Assembly (NCBI GenBank): GCA_043826135.1
Contig: JBDRQT010000005.1
Location: 70,255-134,254 of the forward strand
DNA length: 64,000 nt
From: an archaeon
GTDB taxonomy: Archaea > Nanobdellota > Nanobdellia > Woesearchaeales > GW2011-AR15
Direction: 5' to 3'
Under the pieces are notes generated by a model. The model saw only the letters and a list, made by a program, of their open reading frames with translations. It did no database searches and was not told the origin of the DNA. Positions within the stretch are counted from its first letter, which is position 1; each line of letters opens with the position of its first letter. The position numbers and the translations under genes are program-made. Shown piece after piece: positions 9,001 through 54,718 of the stretch.

Positions 9001-10758
9001 AAATTTGAAATAATTAGTACTGCTGAGCTTGCAAACACCTGTTTTGTAAAAGTCCGTTCAGTTGATGCAATCGAAGGTGTAAACAGGGACTGGTATCTGA
9101 AATTCGATGATGTGTTTAGCGCAATACTTTCATGCAACATAGATTCAGACTGTGGAGGGAATTATGAGTGCAGGAACAATCTTTGCTATGAGAAAAAATT
9201 CGCACTCGTCGGACTTTATGATGTTCCAATAACGAAATTTGCTGAGGCAAAAAGTTATGGGGCTGAGCACCTAGGAACTTATTCAACGGACAATAGTCTG
9301 GGAGCAGAAGACTTCCTAAGATTGAATGATAATTTGTTCAAGACTTCTGGAAACAATCTTGATATTGAAAAAATAAGCCTGAACTATGAAGATGGAACAG
9401 CTTACTGGATAATAGATGATATATGCAATGATGAGAAATGGGATCTGTCTATTAATGATTTGACAGATTTATACACTGAACTAAAAACTCAAGCAAGTTC
9501 ATACGTTATGATAAATTTTGAGGATCTTAACTGTGCACTGGATTACCTCAATTTAGCAGATAAGCCAATAGCTGATGTTGCTATGTTTAAGGTTGATGTC
9601 GCGAGGCCGGATGATTACATAGGAAAGCAGTCAGCACTCGCTGAAGCAATAATAAAAGAGAGTATTGATAAAAAAATCCCAATGAAGATCTTGCCAATTG
9701 TAGATGTGAGCGAGGCAACTCCTGCATGGATATCAAAAACAGGTGAAGACCTGCTTGGAGAAAAAACAACAGGCGGGCTGTCTCCATTCTCAGGCCTGCT
9801 TTTTGGGCCGTATAATAAGATAAGACCGGAAGAAAAAGATGTACTCAGCTATGTATTCTGCAAAGCAAAGGAGATTTATCTTGAGCAGGATTGCAGCGCT
9901 GATCCCGCAGACCTGGTTGAAGAAGTGAAGATTGCATTTGTCTCCAATCTTGCAGATACAAATATTCTCTCTTTGGCACAAGGAAAAGATGTTGACCTGA
10001 TTGTATTATCCGGAAACATCGGAACACCTCTGTTCTCCAGCTCTATACCTTATCTTGGTGCACTTGGGCTTCTGGATAATGAAAATACACAATTCACAAG
10101 GATACCTGAGGGGATGGAGTGCTCTGGCCAGGATGGAGATATGATTGAATGCGAATATAAAGGAATCACCTTTGTTGTTTCAGGGGTCGGGATCTCTGCA
10201 ACATCAGGCCATGAAGATTTCATCAGATCAAGCATGAATGATCTTTCAGGTTGGGGAGTCTGTGTCTGGAGCAAGAATAGTTATCTTCTGAGAACTAGCG
10301 CAAAAGCGAATGCTGAAACACTAGCTCTAAAATATTATGATCTGTGCCTGGCAAAAGGAGCAATCATCGCAACAGGCTATGATCAAAGTTATGCAAGGAC
10401 AAAGACTATTACAGGTATGAGCCAAAATATTATGTATGCAGGATCACCTTCAATCATAACACTCGGGCGCAACAAGACAATGGTTTTCAATTCAGGCCTT
10501 GGAGGCATGGGATCAGATAGGTTTGACTGCAATCGGGGATACGGATACTGGGCAAGCATTTATACCAGCAATTACTATCTCAAGAACGGAATAGATCAGC
10601 AGAAATCATGCACAACTGATGCAGTTGCAAATTTCAAGAATGGAGCACTGTTTATCACATTCAACTATAATGAGGATCAGACAAAGGCTCATGGTGAGTT
10701 CATCACTGTTGATAATCAGGTGATGGACACCTTTGAAATCTCACGCGAAATCTCGTAA
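6037..10758 (+). CDS. Giant (1573 aa) Cys-rich surface protein, paralog 1: pilin-like N-terminus, shared N-module, internal TM block, Pro-rich linker, degenerate metallophosphoesterase-like C-terminus
   Basis: Uninterrupted 4.7-kb ORF. N-terminus MVVGNKSQATLYVIIGLTLVLVIGFF. Blocks EGCVRQTVIDAEIKYGLHRIW and GIWVGLPTEVDAANNKITTYITHFS are shared with the ORFs at 10805, 40794(-) and 47138. Confidence 0.85.
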   Translation: MVVGNKSQATLYVIIGLTLVLVIGFFLSLNAQQRSQEIASVADSRSALDAERFSLDYYIEGCVRQTVIDAEIKYGLHRIWAAPEIEAYIENNLGNCLDDFRYFKERGYLVNNGNLDAKVDISREAVAVTIDLPVYLKKGEMEITYDSKVYRLPLTSLERLNLNGETRIVSSDGTLILEIPEGTVVTVKGQKVDQVGVQLLDRHFNAMPNDVVAGMLAFNGIPHKAEFSKPVKVTKYYQEKDIPIYVREEELRLGTYDSDVGIWVGLPTEVDAANNKITTYITHFSQMATVKDCGTEGEPAVITNTIVRQECTGCEEKWIKDLTSEIKYSLPSPKDYSIDKTQKLGFVPECFGEAPVISPDTGITKEDTDTLKKIIAIDEADFDHCFGFCSDTSNKDKKDPKCNCDLFYYKDYFRQKGLQDKGGLPEGGTDSQKQIIFTLEDGKFQGYDIYDVDFKEKGAACVAALEKDFVVDSVGNNINVDTTGVLTEDNDKAAIAISVDYCSDKDTCQIVKPIFIKQEPKLRFGFQVINSPSEDSPDTCISGGAKVEIAGVGALNAVYGCSGSESGKIDFVRGVCMKCDGQIWQKQDMKECFPEGKCVGALMGVVRWNDKNCEECMSSGEWKKLETPEKCVSSCEEPQDSVALNPTKAIIDITGRPGDPPENEENNIDWKKVAGWAAITVGVVAIGVGIALALPVVLAATGLMAAGGLAFLPALAIAGYGISSIAIPGLIIGGGIITGTAGGFILANSQDVTDQNVQLASSPQQDIQPDASQVNSPAPGAASDSRCLSGSITQPDIPPEQTLTDGAKDCNEAGNVKIYTLLTASWAETEDCKGKGCEAGKCKTEATAEPVKCGKENELICNPGETCDPTTKECKKPDTGSTSSTSSAPTGSLPTVPPSTPPPAAPVAAAPSQLGGASACSPACSTDQDCVDGTCVDKPKTCIEGNPTSPCKDINDASVQGKQFTVPGSINTLDMDFCDTFGSYSGEDKFEIISTAELANTCFVKVRSVDAIEGVNRDWYLKFDDVFSAILSCNIDSDCGGNYECRNNLCYEKKFALVGLYDVPITKFAEAKSYGAEHLGTYSTDNSLGAEDFLRLNDNLFKTSGNNLDIEKISLNYEDGTAYWIIDDICNDEKWDLSINDLTDLYTELKTQASSYVMINFEDLNCALDYLNLADKPIADVAMFKVDVARPDDYIGKQSALAEAIIKESIDKKIPMKILPIVDVSEATPAWISKTGEDLLGEKTTGGLSPFSGLLFGPYNKIRPEEKDVLSYVFCKAKEIYLEQDCSADPADLVEEVKIAFVSNLADTNILSLAQGKDVDLIVLSGNIGTPLFSSSIPYLGALGLLDNENTQFTRIPEGMECSGQDGDMIECEYKGITFVVSGVGISATSGHEDFIRSSMNDLSGWGVCVWSKNSYLLRTSAKANAETLALKYYDLCLAKGAIIATGYDQSYARTKTITGMSQNIMYAGSPSIITLGRNKTMVFNSGLGGMGSDRFDCNRGYGYWASIYTSNYYLKNGIDQQKSCTTDAVANFKNGALFITFNYNEDQTKAHGEFITVDNQVMDTFEISREIS

Positions 10759-10804
10759 ACTTTATATACCACTCCATCTGTTAAAACATCAAGGTGGGGT
10801 TTCT

Positions 10805-13800
10805 ATGAAAGCACAGATGAGTATTTTTGTAATAGTTGGTATTGTGATCACAATAGTTATCGGCAGCTACTTCATGATGAGGTTAACCGATCAGCAGAAT
10901 AATCTTGGCCAGGCATCTGATTATGTTTTTGAGATGGGTTCTAAGCAGAGCTCTCTAAATGCTATAATGCAGGAATGTCTGAAGCAGCATGTGATTGCAG
11001 GTGAGCTTGAGTACGGGTTGCACAGGACGTGGAGCACCAGTCCCATCAGAGAATATATCAAAACGAACTTACCGGGCTGTATCCAGACTTTTGTGACACA
11101 GCAAGGATATAAGATGACAGCAGGAGAGCTCGAGGTCGTTGTTGATATCCAGCAGGAATCAGTTGTTGTTGATGTCCACTACCCCATCATGCTAGTCAAG
11201 CAGGACACGATTCTGAGATTTGAGCAGCAGACATATACTTTCCCTAGGATGACGATGGAGAAGATTGACCCTGAGAAGACAACAAGGGTTGTGTCGGCTG
11301 ACGGAACAATGATTGTGGAGATTCCTCCGGGGACAATTGCAACACTTAACGGAGAGCCAGTTGAGACTGTTGGTTTGAAACAGTTGGATAGAGAGTTTAA
11401 TGGTCTTAGAAATTCTGTTACAGGGGGTATGCTCGCATTCAACGGATATCCACACGGAACTAGGTTCTCCAAGCCTATAACTGTAATTCATTTTTATAAA
11501 GATGAAGATGTGCCAGTTGGAGTTAATGAAGAAGATTTAAGACTTGGTTATTATGATGACGTCTCAAAAATATGGAAAAGCTTGCCAACCATAGTTGATC
11601 CAGACAAAAACAAGATGGTTATGCAGACAATTCATTTTTCAGCCCAGCCAGGACTTCTTGTTCAATGTACAGAAGGTGCCACCTGGACTGCCATTACAGA
11701 GAAACTTGTTTATGAAAGATGCACGCCAGCTGAATGGCACCCTGATAAACAGATTTATGCGTGTCAGGATACAAAGCATGCTACCCCTACAACTACACCT
11801 GATGTATTATGGATAAAACAAGATGGGATTGATCCTGCATTATGCAGTGAAGGGAATGGATGCGGTTCTGAATGTCTGCCTCTTGATTCATGGAAAAGCA
11901 CAGCAGCCGGTCTCGGAGACTGTCATAAGTCAGTGGGTGGAGGAGAGACAGGCTGCGGAACATGCGAATGCTGTGACAATAAAGATGAAACAGATGAATC
12001 ATACTACAAAATGCCTATCTTTTATTATGCAGCAAACCCAACAGGAACATATACAGGCTATCCGGTTAACTTTGCAGGAGAAGGCAATTCATGCCAAGCA
12101 GGAAATCTTGAAGATGATAAAGTTAGTGTCCAGGAACTGCCATTGTTTGCAGACAAAGCAGAAGCAGGGGAAAATGCAAATAATATAAGAGTAGTAGCAA
12201 AAACATACAACGGAGAAACAGATTGTGCTATCTCTCGTATGGATAGCGGGATAACAGATATGCAATTCACATTTGATGAAGCATGTACTGATAGCCAGCC
12301 AAATTCATACTATGCAGGCTATGCAGAAATAACTGGTCAGGGATTTGGAGCAAAAGGCGCATTATATAGTTGTGAAGGCGTTGAACCCGGTACAACTCAA
12401 GATATGCCTCTCGCGACAGGTGGAGATGCTAATAAGATGGTCAGTGCTACTTGCACTTGTGGTGCTGCTAGTGCAGCTATTGCCTCAACAACTTTAGCAG
12501 GAGTTACAGGCACAACAGGATTTGGTTCTCAAGTTGCAAATGCTGGAGGTGTTGAACCAGGGTTAGGTTCTGAAGCTAGTTCAGGACCATGTGTATGGAT
12601 ACCCGCGGAAGGTGAAAAATGTGGTTCAGCAACCTGCACAGCAACTCAGACATGTGATAAATCAGCTGATCCAAATTCAGAGGATCCAGATCCCGCTAAG
12701 CAAGATCAGGATTCATGGGTCTGCAAGGATTCATCAGCAGGCGGTGGCGGCGGTTCAACATGCACCCCTCCATGTACAGGTCGTCAGACTTGTAAAGATG
12801 GAAAGTGTGTTGCAGGCGGCGGAGGCGGTGGTGGGGGAGCTGAATGCGGAACATCAAACGGGCCATGCGATATACCTGATTTTGATACACGTTTGAAAGG
12901 AAAATCATTTACAACTGACAAGGTAATAGACACAAGAGACAAGAAGATGTGCGATTCTTTTGGTGATCTTCCCTCAGGGTCAAAGCTCATTATAATGGAC
13001 CATGTCAAAAGAGGAGTGCAATGTTGGCTCTTTGTTGAACTCCAGCAAGTCACAGATGGTTTCAAGCCAGATCTTTATATTAGATATGATGATGTCAAAC
13101 ATCTCTTGCCGAGTGAAGGTGATGACAATGAGACAAAACCTTGCGAAAAAGATAGTGACTGCAAAGGCGGAAGATTCTGCCATCCTGTCAACAAAACATG
13201 CGTCGGAGCTGGAAGCCTGATACCTATTGTCGGTTTCTATGATGTGCCAACTGATAAGCTTCAGGAGGCAAAGGACTTTGGAGCAGGAACGCTTGCGTTC
13301 ATGGACAGCAATAATGAGGGAAGCATCCCGGTATCTGCTGCAAAGGAACCATTTTCTTTTGAAGTGATTACAAGGCTGAATGACACTGCATATAATAACA
13401 ACAAGGCAATAGCTGATTATGATTTTTCAAGCCATCTGAACAATGAATCAATCGGATACTGGATTCTAAGCGAACCTTGCAATACAGACAGATGGTCTCT
13501 CACATATGATAACATCGGCGGCCTCTATGATAAATTCAAGACAGCAAGCAAAAAGCCGGTGTTTGTCGATTTTGCCAATCTAAACTGCGCTCTTGATATG
13601 TTCAGCAGCGTACCTGATATCAGGGTTCTTGCTGATTATATCATGTTTGACATTAGAAGCACAATGACAAACGATGATATCAATGCAGAGCTAAGGCTTG
13701 TTTATGATGTAGGCAACAAAGCAAGGCTTGCCCAGGGAAATGCAAGAATTATAGCGTTTTTCGATATTGACGGCGCATCTCCAAAATGGATTAACGAGAC

Positions 13801-14872
13801 TGCCAGGAAGATATTAGAGAATGAGGATATAGACGGAATAATTATCTCGCCTTATTCAAGAGTTAGCCAGATGCAGTCAGATATCGGTTTTAGGAATACA
13901 ATTAATGAAGTGATGTGCCTTGCAAACCAAAAATACAGAGACATCCCATGTGAATTTGTGGCAGAGCTGCCTGATACACCACAAGAATATAAGGTAGTGT
14001 TCATCGCAAACCAGGGAACTAGTCAGGATGCATCAGATGTGCTAAGTCTGATTAACAGTAAGGAAGCAGATCTTATCATAATAGACGGAAATATGGGCTA
14101 TGACAAGCAGCCGTTTGAATGGGATAATCTCATGACTGAGACAAGTATACCTGTTCTTGCGACAATAGGTGATATGGACAAGGAAGACTGGCCATCGTAT
14201 GTCAGTCTGATTGAGCCGTATGATGATTCTGTTGAATGCACAGGGACTGCAGGAGACAAGCATGTTTGCAGGTTCAATAATGTGACATTTATTTTATCCG
14301 GAGTCGGCATTTCAAATACTGATGGCAACATTGATTTCATAACCGGTGCTGCAACAGCAGCAGATACGGCATGGAAATTCTGTGTCTGGCATAAAAGCAA
14401 TGATATGCTAAGAGTAAGTGACAGGAGTTCAGATGATACACTTGCACTCCCTTATTATAAGGCATGCTTAGATGCTGGAGCAGTAATTATCACTGGCTAT
14501 GATAACCAATACGCAAGGACAAAGGAAATAACCAACTTGGAAGATTCTGTCGGTTTCCTTGATGTGAATAGCGAGTTTGAAGTCAGGCCAGGCCATTCAA
14601 TTATTATTGACAATGGTCTTGGCGGCTTTGGAAGCGATCGGTATGACTGCGGCAAGGATGCAAACAATTGGTGGGCATCTATCTACACTCCAAACTACTA
14701 TATGAATAACGGACTACAAGTGTCAAAATCTTGCACTGAGGATACTACATCAGGATTTGCTCCTGGTGCATTGTTCTTCACCTTCAATTACCAAGGCAAT
14801 GAGAATAGGACACACGGAGAGTTCGTGAATGTAAATAATGTTGTTGTAGACAGCTTTGACTTGGTCAAATAA
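10805..14872 (+). CDS. Giant (1355 aa) Cys-rich surface protein, paralog 2: same architecture as 6037-10758 but without the internal TM block
   Basis: ATG at 10805 (MKAQMSIFVIVGIVITIVIGSYF) is preceded by AAGGTGGGG. It is collinear with paralog 1 (QECLKQHVIAGELEYGLHRTW; KIWKSLPTIVDPDKNKMVMQTIHFS; YWILSEPCNTDRWSL; GAVIITGYDNQYARTK). Poly-Gly runs lie around 12730-12850. Confidence 0.85.
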   Translation: MKAQMSIFVIVGIVITIVIGSYFMMRLTDQQNNLGQASDYVFEMGSKQSSLNAIMQECLKQHVIAGELEYGLHRTWSTSPIREYIKTNLPGCIQTFVTQQGYKMTAGELEVVVDIQQESVVVDVHYPIMLVKQDTILRFEQQTYTFPRMTMEKIDPEKTTRVVSADGTMIVEIPPGTIATLNGEPVETVGLKQLDREFNGLRNSVTGGMLAFNGYPHGTRFSKPITVIHFYKDEDVPVGVNEEDLRLGYYDDVSKIWKSLPTIVDPDKNKMVMQTIHFSAQPGLLVQCTEGATWTAITEKLVYERCTPAEWHPDKQIYACQDTKHATPTTTPDVLWIKQDGIDPALCSEGNGCGSECLPLDSWKSTAAGLGDCHKSVGGGETGCGTCECCDNKDETDESYYKMPIFYYAANPTGTYTGYPVNFAGEGNSCQAGNLEDDKVSVQELPLFADKAEAGENANNIRVVAKTYNGETDCAISRMDSGITDMQFTFDEACTDSQPNSYYAGYAEITGQGFGAKGALYSCEGVEPGTTQDMPLATGGDANKMVSATCTCGAASAAIASTTLAGVTGTTGFGSQVANAGGVEPGLGSEASSGPCVWIPAEGEKCGSATCTATQTCDKSADPNSEDPDPAKQDQDSWVCKDSSAGGGGGSTCTPPCTGRQTCKDGKCVAGGGGGGGGAECGTSNGPCDIPDFDTRLKGKSFTTDKVIDTRDKKMCDSFGDLPSGSKLIIMDHVKRGVQCWLFVELQQVTDGFKPDLYIRYDDVKHLLPSEGDDNETKPCEKDSDCKGGRFCHPVNKTCVGAGSLIPIVGFYDVPTDKLQEAKDFGAGTLAFMDSNNEGSIPVSAAKEPFSFEVITRLNDTAYNNNKAIADYDFSSHLNNESIGYWILSEPCNTDRWSLTYDNIGGLYDKFKTASKKPVFVDFANLNCALDMFSSVPDIRVLADYIMFDIRSTMTNDDINAELRLVYDVGNKARLAQGNARIIAFFDIDGASPKWINETARKILENEDIDGIIISPYSRVSQMQSDIGFRNTINEVMCLANQKYRDIPCEFVAELPDTPQEYKVVFIANQGTSQDASDVLSLINSKEADLIIIDGNMGYDKQPFEWDNLMTETSIPVLATIGDMDKEDWPSYVSLIEPYDDSVECTGTAGDKHVCRFNNVTFILSGVGISNTDGNIDFITGAATAADTAWKFCVWHKSNDMLRVSDRSSDDTLALPYYKACLDAGAVIITGYDNQYARTKEITNLEDSVGFLDVNSEFEVRPGHSIIIDNGLGGFGSDRYDCGKDANNWWASIYTPNYYMNNGLQVSKSCTEDTTSGFAPGALFFTFNYQGNENRTHGEFVNVNNVVVDSFDLVK

Positions 14873-15023: not shown

Positions 15024-15106
15024 TGCGAAGGGCAGGATTCGAACCTGCGAACCCCTGCGGGAATAGCCCCTGAAGCTACCACGTTTGACCACTTCGCTAC
15101 CTTCGC
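15024..15106 (-). tRNA. tRNA-Leu(CAG), intronless, long variable arm
   Basis: Minus strand reads GCGAAGG-TA-...-GTAGC-TTCAGGG-GCTAT-TCCCGCAGGGGTTC-GCAGG-TTCGAAT-CCTGC-CCTTCGC-A. It has a 7-bp acceptor, a T-loop and an anticodon loop carrying CAG. Confidence 0.85.
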
Positions 15107-15887: not shown

Positions 15888-16265
15888 ATGGTAGCATCAA
15901 ATCTGGAAAGAGGGAATTTCATCATGTACAGGGGCGAACCTGCCCAGATACTTAGGAAAAGCCTGGTCAGTGTCGGTACCCATTCCCACACTAAGCTGGT
16001 TTTTACGATCTGCGATATCTATGGGAAAAGGGAAAGAGAGATAACAATGGCCCATAATGATAAGGTAGATACAGTGGATATACTTAAAAAAAAGGCTACG
16101 GTAATCGCAATCACAGGCAGCGCGCTCCAGATAATGGATGCTGTTAACTATGCAACTCTTGATGCTACTGCTGAAAAGGATGTGTTTGAAACTCTCAAAG
16201 AAGGGGATGAAGTCATATATATAGAGTACCAGGGCGTCAAAGTCATCGGAAAGAAGAAGAATTAA
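15888..16265 (+). CDS. eif5a: Translation initiation factor 5A (aIF5A) homolog with a non-canonical hypusine loop
   Basis: 125 aa and collinear with archaeal aIF5A (LERGNFIMYRGEPAQIL...; ATVIAITGSALQIMDAVNYATLD). The loop reads SVGTHSHTK where aIF5A has PGKHG(G/H)AK. Confidence 0.75.
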   Translation: MVASNLERGNFIMYRGEPAQILRKSLVSVGTHSHTKLVFTICDIYGKREREITMAHNDKVDTVDILKKKATVIAITGSALQIMDAVNYATLDATAEKDVFETLKEGDEVIYIEYQGVKVIGKKKN

Positions 16266-16541: not shown

Positions 16542-16967
16542 ATGGACTACAAACAACATAGTGATAGGTTATTTAGGCATTTGATTTCAATACCATTCAT
16601 TTGGATGATGATTTTCCCGCTAGTAATAATGGATTTTTTCCTGGAAATATATCATAGGATTTGTTTTCCACTTTATGGGATCGGACTAATTTCAAGATCC
16701 CAATATATCAAGATTGATAGGCATAGATTATCCTATCTAACTCTCTGGGACAAGGTAAACTGCGCATATTGCGGATATGCAAACGGTCTCACCAATTATG
16801 CATATGTGATTGCAGGAGAGACTGAAAAATACTGGTGCGGAATTAAACACGCAAAGCAGGAAGGATTCCATGAGCCTTTGCATCATAAAGGTTTTCTGGA
16901 ATATGGCGATAAAAAAGGGTTTGAGGAAAAATGCGCAGGGCAGGACTCGAACCTGCGAAGGCACTAA
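16542..16967 (+). CDS. Conserved-looking hypothetical membrane protein with CAYCGYANG / YWCGIKH motifs
   Basis: 141-aa ORF with an N-terminal hydrophobic helix and Cys motifs. The last ~36 nt overlap tRNA-Leu(CAA) in antisense. Confidence 0.5.
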   Translation: MDYKQHSDRLFRHLISIPFIWMMIFPLVIMDFFLEIYHRICFPLYGIGLISRSQYIKIDRHRLSYLTLWDKVNCAYCGYANGLTNYAYVIAGETEKYWCGIKHAKQEGFHEPLHHKGFLEYGDKKGFEEKCAGQDSNLRRH

Positions 16968-17063
16968 GCCAGCAGCTGTCTTACATGATTTTGTTCATCG
17001 CCTTTTGGGCTCAACCCTCAAATGACTTGAGGCTGCCACGTTTGACCGCTTCGCTACCTGCGC
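16932..17063 (-). tRNA. tRNA-Leu(CAA) with a ~48-nt intron at or near position 37/38
   Basis: Minus strand reads GCGCAGG-TA-GCGAAGCGGTCAAACGT-G-GCAGC-CTCAAG[TCATTTGAGGGTTGAGCCCAAAAGGCGATGAACAAAATCATGTAAGAC]A-GCTGC-TGGCTTAGTGCCTTC-GCAGG-TTCGAGT-CCTGC-CCTGCGC-A. Confidence 0.8.
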
Positions 17064-19066: not shown

Positions 19067-20395
19067 CTAGTAAAGAGAGCTGGAACTAAGTGCATATTTC
19101 ATCATTCTGAGAGTCGACTTAAGCCCAATCAGATTTATTATTTTAAAAGTCTTGACAGGATTATAAAATTTCCTGTTTAATCTCCTTATATAAACGAGTA
19201 TATCTTTTTCACTTAATTTGGTGTGATAATATCTTCTGTCTTCGAATCCTTTTTTTTCATCCTTCAGGCTTATCTGGGCATCACAGATCATATCCCACAA
19301 GGGAGTTCCCGGATAAGGATGCAGTCTGTTCAGGCAAAGAAAGTCAGCATCCAGTTCTAATGCATATTTTTCTGTTAAGTCCAGGCTATCATGCGTTTCC
19401 CAGGGAAAACCCATAATGAATGATGTCTGGGTTCTTATCCCGAGAGCCTTGCAGTCATAGATAGCCTTCTCAACATCTTTTAGCAAAAACCCTTTTTTTA
19501 TTTGTGCAAGTGATGCATCTAATCCGACCTCTGGTGAAAATGCTATCAACCACACTCCGGCATCCTTGAGTTTAGAGAGTAATCTGTGGTTTATCTTATC
19601 CGCTCTGATTCCATTGGCAAGTGAAATCGAAATGTCAATTTTATTTTTAATAATCAAGTCGCAAATTTGTTCTGCTCTTTCCATATCTTCAGTAAAAGAA
19701 TCATCTGCGACCCATAATTCATTTACACCTAACCTCTTGAGATGTATTATCTCTCGGACAACATTTTCTGGGCTCCTTGCCCTGTATTTATGCCCCAGCG
19801 AATGATGACAAAAGATGCAGCCATGAGGGCACCCTCTTGATGTATTTATTGCACAGACAGGAGATTTTTTTTTAATCGTCATATTGTATTTTTTGTATGG
19901 GACTTTTTCAATTGCAGGAAATGGAAGATCATCAAGATTGGAGTATGGAAGACTTGGTTTTGTGCGAATGATTTTTCCGTTCTCTTTATAGCATATTCCT
20001 TTGACTTCTTTTTTGTCTTTTTTTTCGATGAGATTCGCTATGAGGTCTTCAGCTTCACCGACTATAACATAATCTACATTAGGATCTTTAAGCAATAGTT
20101 CTGGCACCAACCTGGCGTGAGGACCACCTACGGCAACAGTTATTATTCTGCTGATTGTTTTAGCTTGATTGATTGCCTTCATAGTTCTTTCTACATTGGA
20201 GCTATTCATTGAAAAACCGATCAGATCATATAGCTTGTAATCAATATTTTTCCTGCCGCAAACAGTATAATCAATTACATCGGTCTTAATCCCTCTTGAT
20301 TCCAAAACAGCAGCATTATACAGAATTCCCAAAGGTTGAAGCTCATTTAGGTACAAACCTTTTGCAGGAGCCTCATAAACAAGGAGCACACGCAT
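19067..20395 (-). CDS. B12-binding-domain radical SAM protein
   Basis: MRVLLVYEAP... N-terminal B12-binding-like domain and CxxxCxxC cluster motif SRGCPHGCIFCHH. The ATG at 20395 is preferred over the ORF-track start at 20542. Confidence 0.75.
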   Translation of the reverse strand: MRVLLVYEAPAKGLYLNELQPLGILYNAAVLESRGIKTDVIDYTVCGRKNIDYKLYDLIGFSMNSSNVERTMKAINQAKTISRIITVAVGGPHARLVPELLLKDPNVDYVIVGEAEDLIANLIEKKDKKEVKGICYKENGKIIRTKPSLPYSNLDDLPFPAIEKVPYKKYNMTIKKKSPVCAINTSRGCPHGCIFCHHSLGHKYRARSPENVVREIIHLKRLGVNELWVADDSFTEDMERAEQICDLIIKNKIDISISLANGIRADKINHRLLSKLKDAGVWLIAFSPEVGLDASLAQIKKGFLLKDVEKAIYDCKALGIRTQTSFIMGFPWETHDSLDLTEKYALELDADFLCLNRLHPYPGTPLWDMICDAQISLKDEKKGFEDRRYYHTKLSEKDILVYIRRLNRKFYNPVKTFKIINLIGLKSTLRMMKYALSSSSLY

Positions 20396-20585
20396 GACTT
20401 GAAAACCGACGTGAATGTTTAAATAATTATCTGTTCCTATTTCACTCTGTTGTGTGGCATGATTATATTTTTGTCGTCTAAATGAAAAGCCCAGCATTTT
20501 GATGAAATTGTCTAAATGTTCTGGAATCATGCTACGCAGCATCTCCTTAGAAACATTTTTAATCTCGAATAATTTATTTCTAGAT

Positions 20586-21814: not shown

Positions 21815-21974
21815 CGCGGTCGCGAAGATTTGAACTCCGGACCTATTGCTCTCTTCCTGTTAAGCTCGTCTGTTCCGGGGGACTAAGCGCTAGCGCATGT
21901 CGCCCAATGCGTGTCAACCGAGCGTAACCAGTTGTTAGGAGGCAATCGCTCTATCCAAGCTGAGCTACGACCGC
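21815..21974 (-). tRNA. tRNA-Arg(CCT) with a ~85-nt GC-rich intron in the anticodon loop
   Basis: Minus strand reads GCGGTCG-TA-GCTC-AGCTTGGATA-GAGC-G-ATTGC-CTCCTAA[85 nt]GCAAT-AGGTC-CGGAG-TTCAAAT-CTTCG-CGACCGC-G. The mature length would be 75 nt. Confidence 0.8.
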
Positions 21975-30837: not shown

Positions 30838-31274
30838 AAGAGAATGATAAGACTATGCTGAATTTTATGATAGCTGTGTTTGTAATAGGAATGGTCAATT
30901 TGCTATGGGCAATTGCAAAATCCATGCAATCTAATTGGTCCTTATTTAATGTTAAAGGGATAGATGTCCTGGTAGCGTATGGTGTTTCACTATTCCTACT
31001 AAAAACTTCAATAAAAGAATTATCTTACTACATGAGACATAAGAAAATTGAACATGGATACGATGAAAGAAACATGATTGTTTTGCATAAGTCACTCGGA
31101 AATACCTGCATTGTCATGCTTACCATATTAATGGGGGCCTTTTATTACTTTTATCTGTTTTATGATGCAGGTACACCTATATTTAGCTTAAGTTCATTTA
31201 ATTGGCTCCTGGGTCCTGCGCTCATTGTTTTCTTATGGTCTTTTAATTATTATTACAAGAGTAAGAACATATAG
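30834..31274 (+). CDS. Small multi-pass membrane protein translationally coupled to the XRE regulator (DUF2178-like arrangement)
   Basis: 4-nt ATGA overlap with the XRE gene and four hydrophobic helices. An XRE plus membrane-protein pairing is a recurrent two-gene module. Confidence 0.55.
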   Translation: MKENDKTMLNFMIAVFVIGMVNLLWAIAKSMQSNWSLFNVKGIDVLVAYGVSLFLLKTSIKELSYYMRHKKIEHGYDERNMIVLHKSLGNTCIVMLTILMGAFYYFYLFYDAGTPIFSLSSFNWLLGPALIVFLWSFNYYYKSKNI

Positions 31275-31356
31275 ATATTTTATTTTCTCTAATTGTAATT
31301 CTACGCCCCAAAAACTATATATACACAGAGCTTTTTATAGGGATTGGGGGATACTC

Positions 31357-32559
31357 ATGATAAAGATACCAAAAGATATGCTTATAGAAAAAATCAAGGA
31401 AAAATCAAATATTTCTGATAAAGAACTTAAGTCCAAAGTCAAGGATAAATTAGACCAGCTATCTGGTCTTATCAGTGAGGAAGGAGCTCTTCATATCATC
31501 GCAAATGAACTTGGAGTCAAGATTCTTGATGATCCTGGTGAACTCCAGGTAAAAAATGTTCTTCCCGGCATGAGGAATGTCGATCTCAAGGCAAAGGTTG
31601 TCAAAATATACGAAACAAGGGAGTTTGACAAGGACGGAAGAAAAGGGAAAGTCGGAAATTTCCTGATAGGTGATGAGACAGGAGTCATGCGGGCAGTTGC
31701 CTGGAATGACAAGGCTGATCTGTTAAATACTCTAAATGAAAATGATGTTGTCAGGATACAGAACGGGTATGCAAGGGACAATCAAGGAAGGACAGAAGTC
31801 CATCTTGGAGACAAGACTACAGTTACGGTTGAAAAAGGCACTAGCATAGATGTCAAGCAGAGAGAATCGATAAGGAAAAGCATAAAGGACCTGAAAGAGA
31901 ATGATGATAATGTTGAGATAATGGGGACCATTGTCCAAGTGTTTGACCCAAGGTTTTTCACAGTTGACCCAGAATCAGGAAAAAAGGTCGTAGAAAAAGA
32001 AGGTAAGTTTTATCTTAATGATAAACTCATTGAAAAGCCCGATTTTTCTTATGTCACAAACCTTATGCTTGATGACGGTACAGATAATATAAGGGTAGTG
32101 CTATGGAAAGCACAGACACAGAAGCTTTTCGAGATGAGCCATGAGACTATTTTATCAAGTAAAGATAAAGGATTTGAAGAGATAAAAAATGAGCTTCTTG
32201 GAAAGATTGTGAAGTTTGCAGGAAAAGTCAATAATAACGAGATGTTTGCAAGGATTGAGTTTGTCGCAAATTTAGTTTTTACTAATCCTAATCCTGAAGA
32301 AGAGATAAAAAGGCTTAATGCTGAGCTTGAAAAACAGAAGTTAGAAAAGAAAGAAGAGGCTGCAGAAGAGCCAGAAGTAGCAGAGGAGTCTGATACTGAA
32401 GAGGAACCAGCTCCTAAGCCAGAGGCCAGAAAACCGGAACTAAAAAAGCCAGAAGTGGTGAAGATCGATATCGCAAAACCAAAGCCAAAAGAAAAAGATG
32501 CAGACGAAATTCTGGATATCGATGAGATTGAGGATTTATCAGATTTGGATTCTATCTAA
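31357..32559 (+). CDS. Replication protein A-like ssDNA-binding protein (OB folds) with a charged K/E-rich C-terminal tail
   Basis: ATG at 31357 is preceded by GGGGG. N-terminus ...LSGLISEEGALHIIANELGV. OB fold VDLKAKVVKIYETREFDKDGRKGKVGNFLIGDETGVMRAVAWNDKA, with a second OB (IMGTIVQVFDPRFF...DGTDNIRVVLWKAQ). Confidence 0.75.
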   Translation: MIKIPKDMLIEKIKEKSNISDKELKSKVKDKLDQLSGLISEEGALHIIANELGVKILDDPGELQVKNVLPGMRNVDLKAKVVKIYETREFDKDGRKGKVGNFLIGDETGVMRAVAWNDKADLLNTLNENDVVRIQNGYARDNQGRTEVHLGDKTTVTVEKGTSIDVKQRESIRKSIKDLKENDDNVEIMGTIVQVFDPRFFTVDPESGKKVVEKEGKFYLNDKLIEKPDFSYVTNLMLDDGTDNIRVVLWKAQTQKLFEMSHETILSSKDKGFEEIKNELLGKIVKFAGKVNNNEMFARIEFVANLVFTNPNPEEEIKRLNAELEKQKLEKKEEAAEEPEVAEESDTEEEPAPKPEARKPELKKPEVVKIDIAKPKPKEKDADEILDIDEIEDLSDLDSI

Positions 32560-32560
32560 T

Positions 32561-33133
32561 TTAATTCTTTATTATTTTTTTAAGGGCATCATCTATGTTT
32601 TTCCCATAAGATATTATTCCTTCCACATGCCCGAGCATCACAATGATGCCTGATGCATTTTCCTTTGCCAACTTTCCAACAGCATGCGCCATCTCTGGCG
32701 TTCCATATGGAATATCTTTTGATATGCACATAGTTTTATTTTTCAAAAAATCCCATAATCTCTTACTATGGATATGGATAACTGCATTTATCCTTAGGTT
32801 TGCCTCGTAAATTGCTGCATGTGTCATTGATTCTGAGGATGCCTTGGTCAGGCCGATGCAAGAGACAAAATTCTTATCAACATCAAAACTAGTGACAAGC
32901 GAGTAATCATCGATGTTTAATTTTTTCTTGTTCCCGGTTTCGCTTCCTGTTATGATAAATTCATTATTTTTCCCTATTCTTATGCTTATGTTTCCATACC
33001 CGATGCCGCTGGGATACGCGCCGATCAAGCCTAACCCATATAACTTTTCTCTGCATGTATTGATTTCAGAGATGTCAAAATTAATAGAAGATTTTTTCCA
33101 GTCAAGATTGAATTTTATGTAGCCATCATCCAT
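32561..33133 (-). CDS. Class II aldolase/adducin-family protein (MtnB-like dehydratase or aldolase)
   Basis: SSESMTHAAIYEANLRINAVIHIHS is the class II aldolase metal-site region. Overlaps and is co-oriented with the mtnA-like gene. Confidence 0.6.
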   Translation of the reverse strand: MDDGYIKFNLDWKKSSINFDISEINTCREKLYGLGLIGAYPSGIGYGNISIRIGKNNEFIITGSETGNKKKLNIDDYSLVTSFDVDKNFVSCIGLTKASSESMTHAAIYEANLRINAVIHIHSKRLWDFLKNKTMCISKDIPYGTPEMAHAVGKLAKENASGIIVMLGHVEGIISYGKNIDDALKKIIKN

Positions 33134-34196
33134 TTTCGGGAAACAACCTCAATATATCTTGTTTAGAAGCATTGCATATCCCTCTTTCAGTGATTAGTCC
33201 TGTTACAAGCCTTGCTGGAGTCACATCAAATGCATAGTTTGCTGATCTGCTGTTTTTCGGCATTATCCTTATTTTTTGACAAATATTATCCTCATTTAGA
33301 CCGGTGATAAAATCAACTTCTTCGCTGCTCCTCTCTTCAATTGGAATGGTCCTATGATCCCTTTCTGCCCATTCAATAGAAGAGGATGGAAGGGCGACAT
33401 AAAAGGGGATATTGTTGTCTTTCGCAGCAAGTGCCTTTAGGTAAGTGCCAATTTTATTTGTGACATCTCCAGAAAGTGTTGTCCTGTCGCTTCCAACAAT
33501 TACTAAATCAACCATACCTCGTTGCATGAGGTGTCCGCCGGTATTATCAACAATTACTGTATGATTAATTCCTTGTTCTCCAAGTTCCCATGCTGTAAGA
33601 TATCCCTGGTTTCTTGGCCTTGTCTCGTCAACCCAGACGTGGAGAGGGATTCCTTTTTCATGGGCCATATATATCGGAGAAGTGGCTGTGCCATAATCAA
33701 CAGTCGCAAGCCAGCCTGCATTGCAGTGTGTTAATATGTTGACAGGTGATTTTTTCTTTTTGTATATCTCTTCAATTATCTTATAGCCATGGGTGCCTAT
33801 CATACTGCATTGGTCCAATGATTTCTCGCAGATTGTATTTGCAGTTTCAAGGGATGTTTTTATCTTGTCTGAGCTTTTTTCTATAAATTTAAGCATTGTA
33901 TCGATTGCCCACATAAGATCGATTGCTGTAGGTCTTGCAGATTTAAGTTTCTCTGCATATTTTTTGATATCAGAATCCTCATTTGCCTCCAGGCACGCAA
34001 GGTACATCCCGTAAGCAGCAGTCACGCCAATTAGGGGAGCGCCTCTTACATGCATGTCTTTTATTGCAGTGAAGACATCTTCAACTGTTTTTAGTTCTTC
34101 AATCACAAATTCAAAGGGGAGTTTTCTTTGGTCGATTATTTTGATTGTGGAATTTTCTAACCAGATTGTGTGGTAGGGTTTGTTGTTGACTAGCAT
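33126..34196 (-). CDS. mtnA: Methylthioribose-1-phosphate isomerase / eIF-2B-family (MtnA-like; could be a ribose-1,5-bisphosphate isomerase)
   Basis: IKIIDQRKLPFEFVIEELKTVEDVFTAIKDMHVRGAPLIGVTAAYG and VGSDRTTLSGDVTNKIGTY are eIF-2B/MtnA family hallmarks. Confidence 0.8.
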   Translation of the reverse strand: MLVNNKPYHTIWLENSTIKIIDQRKLPFEFVIEELKTVEDVFTAIKDMHVRGAPLIGVTAAYGMYLACLEANEDSDIKKYAEKLKSARPTAIDLMWAIDTMLKFIEKSSDKIKTSLETANTICEKSLDQCSMIGTHGYKIIEEIYKKKKSPVNILTHCNAGWLATVDYGTATSPIYMAHEKGIPLHVWVDETRPRNQGYLTAWELGEQGINHTVIVDNTGGHLMQRGMVDLVIVGSDRTTLSGDVTNKIGTYLKALAAKDNNIPFYVALPSSSIEWAERDHRTIPIEERSSEEVDFITGLNEDNICQKIRIMPKNSRSANYAFDVTPARLVTGLITERGICNASKQDILRLFPENG

Positions 34197-34315
34197 AGAA
34201 GATAAGAATAATATATTGGTTTAATAATTTACGATAACTATTTTGACTGAGTTGCTTTAACCGAATCTTACGAGCTGATTCTTGCGACAAAGCATATCTT
34301 AACTGAATTGAAAAT

Positions 34316-34346
34316 GGGGTTTTAGGGGTCTCCCCCTAATTATACT
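34316..34346 (+). repeat. GC-rich palindromic element, copy B
   Basis: ggggttttaggggtctccccctaattatact, comprising a TTAGGGG-TCT-CCCCCTAA hairpin followed by a TATA-like TTATA. Confidence 0.75.
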
Positions 34347-34592
34347 ACAAAAAAATATTCATTATAACCCAACTAGATATTTCCACTGGACTTTCTCTTG
34401 AATATTATATATTCAGCATTCACTGGACACACTGGACATGCTGCTGTGAGGTATTTAAAGAAGCTTGGTTCTAACATTATTCAGCTTGCCAAAACAAGCC
34501 CTCCCGGCTCTGGAGCAGGTGGATTTTTTCCACCTATGCTCATAATGAAGGAGCTGATTGAAACAAGAACCGAAAGGAAAGGGGGAAATAAA

Positions 34593-34892
34593 ATGAAAAC
34601 AACAATAAGTGCACCAGCACAACAAAAATCAAATACCGGAAATGCGCCGGAAAAGAAATTCAGGTCCGGCGGGATCTGCGCAACAGTCTGGAAAAACCAG
34701 TCTGTGAAAGACGGAAAAGTGGTAGAGTTTAGGACTGTCTCATTTGACAGGAACTACCAGGACAAAGAAGGTGAATGGAACACTACTAATTCTCTTCGTG
34801 TGAATGACCTTCCACGTGCATCCTTAGTACTGCAAAAAGCGTATGAATATGTCGCTTTAAGGGAAACTGCCTCTGATGAGGCACATTCCTAA
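34593..34892 (+). CDS. Small (99 aa) hypothetical protein directly upstream of radA; possible PC4-like ssDNA-binding fold
   Basis: ATG at 34593 is preceded by AAGGAAAGGGGG. FRSGGICATVWKN...VVEFRTVSFDRNYQDKEGEWNTTNSLRVNDLPRASLVLQKAYEYV loosely follows the PC4 pattern (IDIREYW.D..GE..P..KGISL....W..L). Its stop lies 24 nt before the radA ATG. Confidence 0.5.
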   Translation: MKTTISAPAQQKSNTGNAPEKKFRSGGICATVWKNQSVKDGKVVEFRTVSFDRNYQDKEGEWNTTNSLRVNDLPRASLVLQKAYEYVALRETASDEAHS

Positions 34893-34916
34893 ATCTTTAT
34901 AACAAAGGTGATATTT

Positions 34917-35888
34917 ATGAAAAAACAAGAACTAGTGATTGAAATGAAAGAACCAGAAAAGGAAATGACTGTAATGGATTTGCCAGGAGTAGGCCCAGCG
35001 ACAGCAGAAAAATTGTCTGTTGCAGGATATGATGACCTTATGGCCATAGCAGTTGCAACACCAGGAGAATTGATAGAGGCTTCAGGCATGGCAGAAGCCG
35101 CTGCAAAGAAAGTGATTGCAGCAGCGCGGGCTGCGATGAGGATGGGATTTGAGTCAGGAACAGATATCCTGAAAAAAAGGATGAATATACTAAAAATAAA
35201 GACCCCGTCAGAAAATCTCAATAATCTTCTAGGCGGAGGTTTTGAGACAGGTGCAATTGTAGAATGCTTTGGTGAATTCGGGTCAGGAAAGACTCAGATT
35301 GCGCACACTTTAGCTGTTGAATGCCAAAGACAAGATGAGACTGCGTTCGCAGTCTTTATTGATACAGAAAACACGTTCAGGCCTGAAAGGATAATAGAAC
35401 TCTCTAAAGGAGCCGGCCTTGATCCTGACAAAGTACTTGCAAATATTAAAGTTGCAAGAGCTTATAACTCTGATCACCAGATGCTTCTTGCTGAGAAAAT
35501 AACAGATTTGATTAAGCAGGGCCTGAATGTCAAAGTTGTGATTGTAGATTCCCTGACAGCGCATTTCAGGGCTGAATTTATCGGTAGAGGGACACTTGCA
35601 GAAAGACAGCAGAAACTAAACAAGCATATGCATGAACTCTTAAGGGTTGCAGATACGAACAATGTCTTAGTCTATGTGACAAACCAGGTAATGTCAAGGC
35701 CGGATGTATTCTTCGGAGACCCGACCCAGGCCATCGGAGGCCATGTAGTTGCGCATGCATCTACCTTTAGAATCTATCTGAGGAAAGGCAAGAAAGGCTC
35801 AAGAGTTGCAAAGCTCATTGATTCGCCTAATCTCCCGGATGGGGAATGTGCCTTCATGGTAGAAACGGAAGGAATAAGGGATATTTAG
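34917..35888 (+). CDS. radA: DNA repair and recombination protein RadA
   Basis: N-terminal HhH ([31 protein letters not shown]), Walker [10 protein letters not shown] and Walker [18 protein letters not shown] lies 6 nt upstream of the ATG at 34917. Confidence 0.92.
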
Positions 35889-35946
35889 TAACTTTTATTT
35901 TTGAATTATTTTATTAGTTAATGTATAAGAAAAAAAATGCCTCTTC

Positions 35947-40794: not shown

Positions 40795-40960
40795 ATCCCC
40801 ACCCTCATATTTTATGGAAAATCTGATGTGTTTCCCCTATATAAGCTTTTCCAGAGGATAAGCTTAAAAACCCTTTTTAAGGCATAATTTTAAATAGTGA
40901 ACTCTATTCTCTCTTTCTGGACGTCAAAGTCCAAATATACATAAGTAGGTGCAAGTAAAT

Positions 40961-41287
40961 ATGCGAGACAATATGGGAAATACAGCCCCTGTTCAAGAAG
41001 GGGAAGAGTTAGAAGTGAAGATTGAAGCTATCGGCGATAAAGGCGATGGCATTGCCAAGAAGGATGGTTTTGTCCTTGTTGTGCCAGGAACTAAAGCAGG
41101 AGAGACAGTTACTATTAAAGTGACTAAAGTCCTTAGGAAAGTAGGGTTTGCTGAAGTTGTTGGCAGGTCTGAAAACCAGTCATCTGAGGAATCAGATGAG
41201 CCTGAACAGTCTGAAGAATCAGAAGAATCAGAAGAGTCTGCAGAAGAGCCTCAGGAAGATTCAGAAGATTTCGGCGACGAAGAATAA
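40961..41287 (+). CDS. TRAM-domain protein with an acidic Ser/Glu-rich tail
   Basis: EELEVKIEAIGDKGDGIAKKDGFVLVVPGTKAGETVTIKVTKVLRKVGFAEVV is a TRAM fold pattern. The ATG at 40961 sits 9 nt after AGGTG (the ORF-track GTG at 40949 lies within that SD). Confidence 0.75.
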   Translation: MRDNMGNTAPVQEGEELEVKIEAIGDKGDGIAKKDGFVLVVPGTKAGETVTIKVTKVLRKVGFAEVVGRSENQSSEESDEPEQSEESEESEESAEEPQEDSEDFGDEE

Positions 41288-41319
41288 ATTTTTAATATAC
41301 TATTTTTCTTTCTGATTTT

Positions 41320-52365: not shown

Positions 52366-52369
52366 AAAA

Positions 52370-54638: not shown

Positions 54639-54718
54639 ATTACCTAGGAAATATTTATATACATGATTAATTGAGTTCTATGATATTACGATTTTGATTC
54701 AGATAAAGAGGTGATTAG

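What the first reader, a model, noticed from the sequence alone, without database searches (positions are those of the whole stretch)
15960..16000. aIF5A homolog lacks the hypusine lysine (GKHG becomes GTHS)
The protein aligns along its whole length with archaeal aIF5A. However, the modification loop reads S-V-G-T-H-S-H-T-K where aIF5A/eIF5A have (S/T)-(K/P)-(T/P)-G-K-H-G-(H/G/S)-A-K. The codon at 15978-15980 is ACC (Thr) at the position of the Lys that deoxyhypusine synthase modifies.
Hypusine or deoxyhypusine on this Lys is regarded as essential for a/eIF5A function. The factor may therefore work unmodified, be modified elsewhere (the downstream K of HTK), or have changed function.
This would fit a reduced genome that has lost DHS.
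Basis: partly seen in the sequence, partly recalled or inferred. Interest (0 to 1): 0.65.

Follow-up and report, generated by a model that had tools for sequence, protein, structure and literature searches.

The report
aIF5A-like protein without hypusine lysine
This DPANN (Woesearchaeota-type) archaeon encodes a well-conserved relative of translation factor aIF5A that has threonine where the essential hypusine-modified lysine should be; it belongs to a large, apparently undescribed subfamily that is probably a second, hypusine-independent copy beside a normal aIF5A, not proof that the organism has given up hypusine.

Summary
ORF 15888-16265 (+, 125 aa) is an aIF5A-fold protein, and codon 15978-15980 (ACC, Thr31) aligns without gaps to the hypusine lysine. 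The loop reads G-T-H-S-H-T-K where canonical factors read G-K-H-G-H-A-K.

It is not a one-off or a decaying gene.
- All 54 related loci, including 45 GTDB species genomes labelled Woesearchaeota or Nanoarchaeota, keep Thr, using all four Thr codons.
- The protein evolves about as slowly as core genes.
- Sister clades keep the x-H-S-H-T-K scaffold but carry R, S, K or N at the tip.

The reading "reduced genome that lost DHS, sole unmodified factor" is weakened. MAG ARS102 carries the Thr variant (L035) and, in a published marker alignment, also a canonical GKHGHAK aIF5A. Canonical Woesearchaeota aIF5A forms its own abundant family in a different conserved gene neighbourhood.

Best reading (confidence about 0.55): a new paralogous aIF5A-like subfamily that cannot be hypusinated and probably acts unmodified on the ribosome, comparable to bacterial EfpL beside EF-P. 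About 0.25 remains that this organism has only this copy.

I could not test for DHS or a canonical copy across this organism's genome. Neither lies in the 64-kb window.

The parts
15888..16265 (+). Gene for a 125-aa aIF5A-like protein of the Thr type (N-terminal SH3/KOW-like domain plus C-terminal OB domain); the end coordinate includes the stop codon
   Evidence: ORF list and sequence. NCBIfam PRK03999 and TIGR00037 match the full length but score below their curated cut-offs; Pfam PF21485 scores above its cut-off. AF2 model pLDDT 91.5, and the top Foldseek hits are archaeal aIF5A. It is the only aIF5A-like gene in the window.
15969..15995 (+). Beta3-beta4 loop S28-V-G-T-H-S-H-T-K36, equivalent to the hypusine loop T-G-K-H-G-H-A-K
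   Evidence: Gapless alignments. G30, H32, S33, H34, T35 and K36 are invariant in 31 close homologues. The motif G-T-H-[S/M/C]-H-[T/S/A]-K is present in 54 loci.
15978..15980 (+). Codon ACC = Thr31, at the position of the lysine that deoxyhypusine synthase modifies
   Evidence: At this position the 54 loci use ACC 17, ACG 17, ACT 13 and ACA 7 times, and the residue is always Thr.

Best explanation
The ORF is a functional member of a large, previously unannotated subfamily of aIF5A-like proteins found in Woesearchaeota-type DPANN archaea. In this subfamily the hypusine lysine is replaced by Thr inside a strictly conserved G-T-H-S-H-T-K loop. It cannot be (deoxy)hypusinated. This much is shown.

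The rest is inferred. Most likely it is a second, paralogous E-site factor that exists beside a canonical Lys-bearing aIF5A encoded elsewhere in the genome. It still docks on the ribosome like aIF5A, because the fold, the G-x-H-x-H-x-K loop scaffold and the OB-domain motifs are kept. It would act without the long cationic hypusine arm, through a short hydroxyl/imidazole-rich loop tip. That would make it an auxiliary or specialised factor, as EfpL is to EF-P in bacteria. The co-existence of two copies is shown for one related genome only. Ribosome binding and any activity are untested.
For: - **Real and selected.**
  - 30 of 31 close homologues have Thr, and H-S-H-T-K is invariant.
  - All 54 loci keep Thr while using all four Thr codons. 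Ser33 uses both the TCN and AGY codon families.
  - Between the window and L001 the protein is 68% identical, against 64.6% for RNase J and 61.5% for MarC.
- **Same fold as aIF5A**. Thirteen columns are invariant between canonical Woesearchaeota aIF5A and the Thr type, including G, H, H and K of the loop and the M-D...T-x-D motif of the OB domain.
- **One clade.** An exhaustive HMMER search and a neighbour-joining tree put all non-Lys loops in one superclade, apart from the canonical GKHG sequences.
- **Paralogy.**
  - ARS102 carries the Thr type on a 139.8-kb contig (L035).
  - It also has a canonical GKHGHAK aIF5A in the Figure_2 alignment of PMC8421398.
  - That study rates ARS102 88% complete with 0% contamination.
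  - It found the eIF5A marker in 424 sequences against 430 for uL14, on my reading of unlabelled columns.
- **Separate loci.**
  - Canonical Woesearchaeota-type aIF5A is abundant; 80 metagenome loci were retrieved.
  - It sits in its own conserved neighbourhood (230 aa, 96 aa, aIF5A, 54 aa, M50 peptidase, TatD).
  - None of the 48 Thr loci shares that neighbourhood.
- **Variable tip in sister clades** (T 36, R 16, S 13, K 7, N 3 of 75). This fits release from the hypusine constraint.
- **Precedent.** An unmodified paralogue with a different loop tip (EfpL) is reviewed in PMC12856214.
Against: - Co-occurrence rests on a single MAG and on the purity of its binning. I could not read the ARS102 canonical gene's contig myself.
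- No canonical aIF5A and no DHS lie in the 64-kb window or within 10 kb of any of the 48 Thr loci outside the window (627 kb).
- In 11 or more Thr loci, including ARS102's own (FtsY 693 bp away), the Thr gene lies beside NAD kinase, FtsY, L21e or a DUF655-like gene. These are the same neighbours that flank canonical aIF5A in TACK archaea. The Thr gene could therefore be the original, positionally orthologous copy.
- PMC8421398 scores DHS as gained by transfer on at least one branch in the subgroup J analysis. This would allow Woesearchaeota outside that lineage to lack DHS.
- The window shares RPA, RadA, TRAM and LigT synteny with loci where canonical aIF5A lies 0.9-8 kb from these genes, yet it has no canonical gene there.
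- No experiment bears on ribosome binding or activity.
Confidence: 0.55

Rival explanations
1. Sole factor. The Thr-type protein is this organism's only aIF5A, the vertically inherited orthologue. The lineage has lost DHS and hypusination, and translation proceeds with an unmodified factor.
For: - No canonical copy or DHS in 64 kb.
- The Thr gene occupies the ancestral aIF5A neighbourhood (NAD kinase, FtsY, L21e, DUF655-like) in several lineages.
- It is as conserved as core genes.
- PP and PPP motifs are not depleted (PP O/E 1.03 against 1.04 in DPANN loci with canonical aIF5A), so a factor is still needed.
- DHS is scored as a transfer-type gain within Woesearchaeota in PMC8421398.
- NCBI calls these proteins 'hypothetical', so surveys would have missed them.
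Against: - ARS102 has both gene types.
- Canonical aIF5A is near-universal in the PMC8421398 data set, which includes Thr-type carriers of subgroups H and J.
- K03263 (eIF5A) does not appear in that paper's supplementary tables, so its gene-gain table lists no eIF5A gain, which points to vertical inheritance.
- Canonical and Thr loci have non-overlapping contexts.
- The window covers only a small part of the genome.
- Hypusine contacts A76 of the P-site tRNA in a way a Thr side chain cannot reach (PMC4770232).
Confidence: 0.25
2. Alternative modification. The loop carries a different post-translational modification that replaces hypusine, for example O-glycosylation or phosphorylation of Thr31, Ser33 or Thr35, or a modification of His32 or His34. 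This could apply whether or not a canonical copy exists.
For: - The three substitutions relative to G-K-H-G-H-A-K all introduce hydroxyl residues (T, S, T) and are strictly conserved.
- Bacteria show that EF-P tips are modified in several unrelated chemical ways (PMC12856214).
- A KamA-family radical SAM gene lies one gene away in 3 loci.
Against: - No gene family is consistently linked to the Thr gene. The best is present in 13 of 48 loci, and no transferase or kinase is enriched.
- The KamA-like gene is absent from the window and from 45 of 48 loci. It is closer to AblA than to EpmB, and it would need an amine acceptor that Thr lacks.
- Position 33 tolerates Met or Cys, and position 35 tolerates Ala.
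Confidence: 0.12
3. Off-ribosome function. The paralogue has left translation elongation altogether, for example as an RNA-binding, chaperone or structural protein. The fungal eIF5A-derived HEX1 protein is a precedent (own knowledge).
For: - Long branch and sub-threshold family scores (TIGR00037 63.7 against a cut-off of 75.45).
- The tip residue varies between sister clades, and some relatives have no recognisable loop: P0067, P0071 (labelled Woesearchaeota), P0080, P0085 and P0119.
Against: - The loop scaffold G-x-H-x-H-x-K and the OB-domain motifs shared with canonical aIF5A stay invariant in the Thr clade. This is hard to explain without the same binding partner.
- Several loci place the gene among translation and ribosome genes: Nop56/fibrillarin/CysRS, and L21e and FtsY.
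Confidence: 0.1
4. Artefact or decay: a sequencing error, an alignment error or a pseudogene.
For: None beyond the low family scores.
Against: - Intact ORF.
- The same motif occurs in 54 independent loci with synonymous codon turnover.
- Three alignment methods agree without gaps.
- The fold prediction is confident.
Confidence: 0.01

Closest known systems
Canonical archaeal aIF5A (M. jannaschii 1EIF/2EIF, P. horikoshii 1IZ6, S. solfataricus 8PUT; TIGR00037)
   Same: Two-domain fold, length, gapless full-length alignment, the conserved G-x-H-x-H-x-K loop scaffold and the OB-domain motifs.
   Different: Thr replaces the hypusine Lys, with G52S and A54T next to it. Scores fall below the curated equivalog cut-offs. 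Identity to canonical Woesearchaeota aIF5A is only about 22-31%. The conserved gene neighbourhood is different.
EfpL (YeiP), the bacterial EF-P paralogue (PDB 8S8U; PMC11611912, PMC12856214)
   Same: A second copy of the E-site factor beside the canonical one. It has a different loop tip and needs no modification enzyme. This is the best functional analogy.
   Different: EfpL has three domains, a loop extended by two residues and an Arg at the tip. Here there are two domains, an unchanged loop length and a short neutral Thr. The two are not homologous as subfamilies, and co-existence with the canonical copy is shown in only one genome.
Unmodified EF-P of Actinobacteria (PGKGP loop, PDB 6S8Z)
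   Same: An E-site factor that is active without post-translational modification (PMC12856214).
   Different: Those proteins keep the tip lysine and stiffen the loop with prolines. Here the lysine itself is gone.
Arg-type EF-P (EarP-rhamnosylated) and the R-type sister clade found here
   Same: Sister clades of the Thr type carry Arg at the tip (S-R-H-S/T-H-T-K), as Arg-type EF-P does in bacteria.
   Different: No EarP-like gene was seen next to the one R-type locus examined (L075). The window protein is T-type, not R-type.
HEX1 (fungal Woronin-body protein derived from eIF5A; own knowledge, not tested here)
   Same: An eIF5A-derived paralogue that lost the hypusine site and took on a new role.
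   Different: HEX1 is eukaryotic and self-assembles into crystals. It does not keep the loop scaffold conserved as this protein does.

Membership tests
a/eIF5A (TIGR00037 / PRK03999; PF21485 + OB domain) | Two-domain fold: N-terminal SH3/KOW-like barrel plus C-terminal OB fold | tested here: met
   AF2 pLDDT 91.5. The top Foldseek PDB hits are 1IZ6, 1BKB, 2EIF and 8PUT.
a/eIF5A (TIGR00037 / PRK03999; PF21485 + OB domain) | Scores above the curated family cut-off | tested here: inconclusive
   PF21485 scores 30.9 against a cut-off of 27.1 (met). TIGR00037 scores 63.7 against 75.45 and PRK03999 scores 68.6 against 138 (not met).
a/eIF5A (TIGR00037 / PRK03999; PF21485 + OB domain) | Lysine at the tip of the beta3-beta4 loop (G-K-H-G) that is converted to (deoxy)hypusine | tested here: not met
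   Thr31 (ACC, 15978-15980) aligns to K50 of human eIF5A and to the Lys of 1EIF, 1IZ6 and 8PUT. Thr is present in 54 of 54 loci.
a/eIF5A (TIGR00037 / PRK03999; PF21485 + OB domain) | Partner enzyme deoxyhypusine synthase (PF01916) in the same genome | not testable with these tools
   No DHS in the window or in the 48 Thr loci outside it (627 kb) by tblastn with verified human DHS.
a/eIF5A (TIGR00037 / PRK03999; PF21485 + OB domain) | Single essential copy per archaeal genome (orthologue) | tested here: inconclusive
   There is one copy per locus and one in the window, and some loci show ancestral synteny. ARS102, however, also has a canonical copy.
EF-P (TIGR00038) | Three domains (KOW plus two OB), about 185 aa, Lys or Arg at the loop tip | tested here: not met
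   The protein has 125 aa and two domains. The EF-P models match only positions 3-118 at 30 bits against cut-offs of 161-186, and the tip residue is Thr.
EfpL-like 'unmodified second copy' (functional class, not a homologous family) | Co-exists with a canonical, modified factor in the same genome | tested here: inconclusive
   Shown for ARS102 only. Unknown for the window's organism.
EfpL-like 'unmodified second copy' (functional class, not a homologous family) | Extended loop with a tip Arg that reaches the CCA end without modification | tested here: not met
   The loop has the same length as in canonical aIF5A and the tip is Thr.

The most novel reading that the evidence does not exclude
The window's organism, and many other Woesearchaeota outside the gene-rich subgroup J, have no canonical aIF5A and no DHS. 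The Thr-type protein would then be the vertically inherited, sole E-site factor, so an entire archaeal lineage translates without hypusine. This would contradict the textbook view that the hypusine lysine is strictly conserved and essential in Archaea and Eukarya. The canonical copy plus DHS in subgroup J would be a secondary re-acquisition.
Probability: 0.22. Interest if true: 0.88.

Novelty: new variant of a known kind. Interest (0 to 1): 0.55.

Why it matters
- **Against the textbook view.** Current reviews describe the hypusine lysine as strictly conserved in archaea and eukaryotes (PMC12856214), and DHS as present in all sequenced archaea as of 2016 (PMC5178350).
- **Size and visibility of the subfamily.** This conserved aIF5A-fold subfamily includes at least 45 GTDB species and about 60 clusters at 50% identity. 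It lacks the lysine, is labelled 'hypothetical protein' at NCBI and falls below the TIGR00037 cut-off. It seems to have gone unnoticed: no paper in the library links hypusine with Woesearchaeota or treats it in DPANN biology.
- **If it is a paralogue,** archaea would have an EfpL-like second E-site factor. That makes it testable what the aIF5A body can do on the ribosome without the hypusine arm.
- **If it is the sole copy,** hypusine would not be universal.
- **Practical consequence.** Marker-gene and annotation pipelines can confuse or miss the two gene types in DPANN genomes.

Tried and rejected
- **Loop indel or shifted lysine.** Rejected. Three independent alignments are gapless, and K36 is the ordinary K55 equivalent.
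- **Pseudogene or sequencing error.** Rejected.
- **A modification enzyme identified by gene context.** No family is enriched next to the Thr gene. The KamA-like radical SAM gene is a neighbour in only 3 of 48 loci, and it is AblA-like rather than EpmB-like.
- **Polyproline depletion as a sign of a weakened factor.** Not seen. PP O/E is 1.03 against 1.04, and PPP O/E is 2.6 against 2.2. The samples are small.
- **DHS distribution through the protein search.** Uninformative. Only the best 120 of 5825 hits are listed, all Bathyarchaeia or eukaryotes.
- **DHS next to aIF5A.** Found only in three Bathyarchaeia loci. There is none within 10 kb of the Thr loci (48 outside the window), of 80 canonical Woesearchaeota-type loci or of 3 K/R-type loci.
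- **Extending the window's contig.** One look-up failed and the other returned a different short contig.
- **More co-occurrence points.**
  - The NCBI genome carrying P0093 is JAGVZY01, which is not among my Thr carriers.
  - FT1_083 and CG08_land_8_20_14_0_20_47_9 are not in the stored part of the published alignment.
- **Limits of the GTDB scan.** It used Thr-variant-biased peptide patterns, so it could not have seen canonical second copies.

Full report
**1. The observation**

The window is archaeal DNA with 38.7% G+C. It carries PCNA, RadA, RPA, RNase J, GatD, AsnRS and giant surface-type ORFs.

ORF 15888-16265 (+) encodes 125 aa. Three lines of evidence identify it as an aIF5A relative.
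- It matches the aIF5A models over their whole length. PRK03999 covers residues 4-122 against positions 9-127 of 129 (E 3.8e-19), and TIGR00037 gives E 1.5e-17. Both scores are below the curated cut-offs (68.6 against 138; 63.7 against 75.45). The Pfam N-domain model PF21485 passes (30.9 against 27.1).
- Gapless alignments to three archaeal aIF5A structures and to human eIF5A put Thr31 (ACC, 15978-15980) on the hypusine lysine. The loop G-T-H-S-H-T-K lies opposite G-K-H-G-H-A-K, so K36 is the usual K55 equivalent.
- An AlphaFold2 model (pLDDT 91.5) has the aIF5A two-domain fold, with residues 29-34 as the beta3-beta4 loop. Its best PDB matches are archaeal aIF5A.

**2. It is a family, not an accident**

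- **Close homologues.** The word-indexed search found 31 homologues at 45-100% identity, with source names Woesearchaeota and Nanoarchaeota. G30, H32, S33, H34, T35 and K36 are invariant. Thr31 is present in 30 of 31, and the exception has Met.
- **Exhaustive search.** HMMER over 1.84 billion representatives gave 176 hits. About 30 full-length clusters at 50% identity carry G-T-H-[S/C/M]-H-[S/T]-K. Canonical GKHG loops first appear at E about 3e-15.
- **Species genomes.** A scan of GTDB genomes found the motif in 45 species genomes.
- **Codon evidence for selection.** In 54 loci the Thr position uses ACC 17, ACG 17, ACT 13 and ACA 7 times and never changes residue. Ser33 uses both TCN and AGY codons.
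- **Rate of evolution.** Between the window and locus L001 the protein is 68% identical, against 64.6% for RNase J and 61.5% for MarC.
- **Sister group.** A search seeded with odd-loop sequences keeps the scaffold [G/S]-X-H-[S/T]-H-[T/S/A]-K with X = T 36, R 16, S 13, K 7 and N 3 of 75. A few relatives have lost the loop motif altogether, one of them labelled Woesearchaeota.
- **Tree.** A rough neighbour-joining tree puts all non-canonical loops in one superclade.

**3. Is it the organism's only aIF5A?**

My early evidence leaned towards yes.
- The window has one aIF5A-like gene and no DHS.
- There is no tandem second copy in any locus.
- In at least 11 Thr loci the gene lies beside NAD kinase, FtsY, L21e or a DUF655-like gene. 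These also flank canonical aIF5A in Bathyarchaeia, Methanomethylicota and Nitrososphaerota, where DHS lies between aIF5A and FtsY in Bathyarchaeia.

The published marker alignment of the Woesearchaeota study PMC8421398 changed the picture.
- The record for MAG ARS102 contains a canonical block...VTDTQVSRPGKHGHAKVRLTAVG..., directly after RpoB. The study places ARS102 in subgroup J and rates it 88% complete with 0% contamination.
- ARS102 is also one of my Thr-type genomes. L035 lies on contig NZEC01000018.1 (139.8 kb), with loop VYGTHSHSK.
- In the stored part of that alignment GKHGHAK occurs 32 times and the Thr motifs never occur.
- The study found its eIF5A marker in 424 sequences against 430 for uL14 (this is my reading of unlabelled columns).
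- K03263 (eIF5A) does not appear in that paper's supplementary tables, so its gene-gain table lists no eIF5A gain. A DHS orthogroup appears under two of the six branches analysed for subgroup J and is labelled 'Transfer' in one of them.

A metagenome scan with canonical Woesearchaeota-type aIF5A returned 80 loci at 55-86% identity.
- They share a neighbourhood of their own: 230 aa, 96 aa, aIF5A, 54 aa, M50 peptidase, TatD.
- None of the 48 Thr loci has that neighbourhood, and the reverse is nearly true as well.

The two gene types therefore occupy different places in the genome and co-occur in at least one genome.

My GTDB scan used Thr-biased peptide patterns and could not have detected canonical second copies.

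The window does share RPA, RadA, TRAM and LigT synteny with canonical loci in which aIF5A lies 0.9-8 kb from these genes. It has giant ORF 35947-40794 in that position instead. The distance to aIF5A varies between loci, so this is weak evidence.

**4. Mechanism**

*Shown.* The protein cannot accept deoxyhypusine, because there is no lysine at the site. It keeps the aIF5A fold. The flanking loop residues and OB-domain motifs that it shares with canonical Woesearchaeota aIF5A remain invariant, 13 columns in all.

*Established knowledge.* Hypusine reaches the phosphate of A76 of the P-site tRNA and the backbone of H74 (PMC4770232). A Thr side chain cannot span that distance.

*Inferred.* The protein still binds the E site with its loop pointing toward the peptidyl-transferase centre. 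It would contact its surroundings through a short hydroxyl/imidazole-rich tip (T-H-S-H-T). Its role would be auxiliary or specialised, beside the hypusinated factor, as EfpL acts beside EF-P (PMC12856214).

*On an alternative modification.* All three changes relative to GKHGHAK are single-nucleotide changes that create hydroxyl residues, so a different modification remains possible. No candidate enzyme is linked by gene context. The KamA-family radical SAM gene near the Thr gene in three loci is AblA-like and is absent from the window.

*Polyproline content.* It does not differ from that of DPANN loci with canonical aIF5A.

**5. What is known**

- Reviews state that the lysine is strictly conserved in archaea and eukaryotes. 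A 2016 study states that DHS is present in all sequenced archaea.
- Full-text searches found no paper that links hypusine with Woesearchaeota or treats it in DPANN biology; the few hits are incidental.
- The papers I read from the aIF5A-paralogue search do not describe an archaeal aIF5A paralogue.
- NCBI labels members of this family 'hypothetical protein', and most have no precomputed Pfam hit.

I file it as a new variant (subfamily) of the aIF5A kind. It fails the family's defining chemical feature and the equivalog cut-offs.

**6. Verdict**

| Reading | Confidence |
|---|---|
| Hypusine-independent paralogue beside a canonical aIF5A | about 0.55 |
| Sole factor in a hypusine-free lineage | about 0.22-0.25 |

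The decisive test is a whole-genome co-occurrence table of canonical aIF5A, Thr-type aIF5A and DHS. I could not run it here.

Noticed in passing
window 16932-17063 (-) and 21815-21974 (-): Rfam finds two tRNA genes of 132 and 160 nt, presumably intron-containing, that ARAGORN missed. ARAGORN reported only tRNA-Leu(CAG) at 15024-15106. The first overlaps the 3' end of ORF 16542-16967.
   Followed up: partly
window 16542-16967 (+): A 141-aa ORF directly downstream of the Thr-type gene. It has a hydrophobic N-terminus and a C-x-x-C...C motif, and no Pfam or NCBIfam match. A 63-65% identical homologue is also adjacent to the Thr-type gene in L005 and is present in L010.
   Followed up: partly
L001 257-1531, L005 4980-6254, L011 11064-12329: A 424-aa KamA-family radical SAM protein (lysine-2,3-aminomutase-like; related to, but scoring below, the EF-P modifier EpmB). 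It lies one gene away from the Thr-type aIF5A in three related loci, in differing orientation. It is absent from the window and from the other 45 loci.
   Followed up: partly
Proteins P0051-P0075 and P0307-P0374; loci L073-L075: Sister clades keep x-H-S-H-T-K but carry Arg, Ser, Lys or Asn at the former hypusine position. Some relatives lack the loop motif entirely, for example P0071, labelled Woesearchaeota. Contigs of the K- and R-type proteins carry amino-acid biosynthesis and cytochrome c genes, so they may not be DPANN. One cluster member is labelled Hydrothermarchaeales.
   Followed up: partly
L077-L166 (canonical Woesearchaeota-type aIF5A loci): Canonical aIF5A sits in a strongly conserved block: 230 aa, 96 aa, aIF5A, 54 aa, M50 peptidase, TatD. 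No DHS lies within 10 kb in the 80 metagenome loci L077-L156. One of these loci lies on a 936-kb single contig, Ga0315279_10000002, which may be a near-complete genome.
   Followed up: partly
window 31225-41817: RPA, a 164-aa ORF, RadA, TRAM and LigT are syntenic with canonical-aIF5A loci L154, L155, L127, L112 and L099. In the window a 1615-aa ORF (35947-40794, -) is inserted between RadA and TRAM.
   Followed up: partly
window 6037-10758 (+), 10733-14872 (+), 35947-40794 (-): Three giant ORFs of 1573, 1379 and 1615 aa, of the kind expected for DPANN surface proteins. They were not scanned against any protein family library.
   Followed up: no
window 57065-60222 (+): Pyruvate formate-lyase-like glycyl radical enzyme (738 aa) followed by its radical SAM activase.
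   Followed up: no
window 32561-34196 (-): S-methyl-5-thioribose-1-phosphate isomerase (MtnA, 445 bits) next to a class II aldolase. This suggests methylthioadenosine salvage. MTA is a by-product of polyamine synthesis, which could bear on whether spermidine is made.
   Followed up: no
window 51296-55522 (+): A cluster of small ORFs. The first has an archaeal class III (pilin-type) signal peptide, and one has a cohesin domain.
   Followed up: no
window 19067-20542 (-): B12-binding radical SAM protein of 491 aa with no equivalog match. The best hit, HpnJ-like, is far below its cut-off.
   Followed up: no
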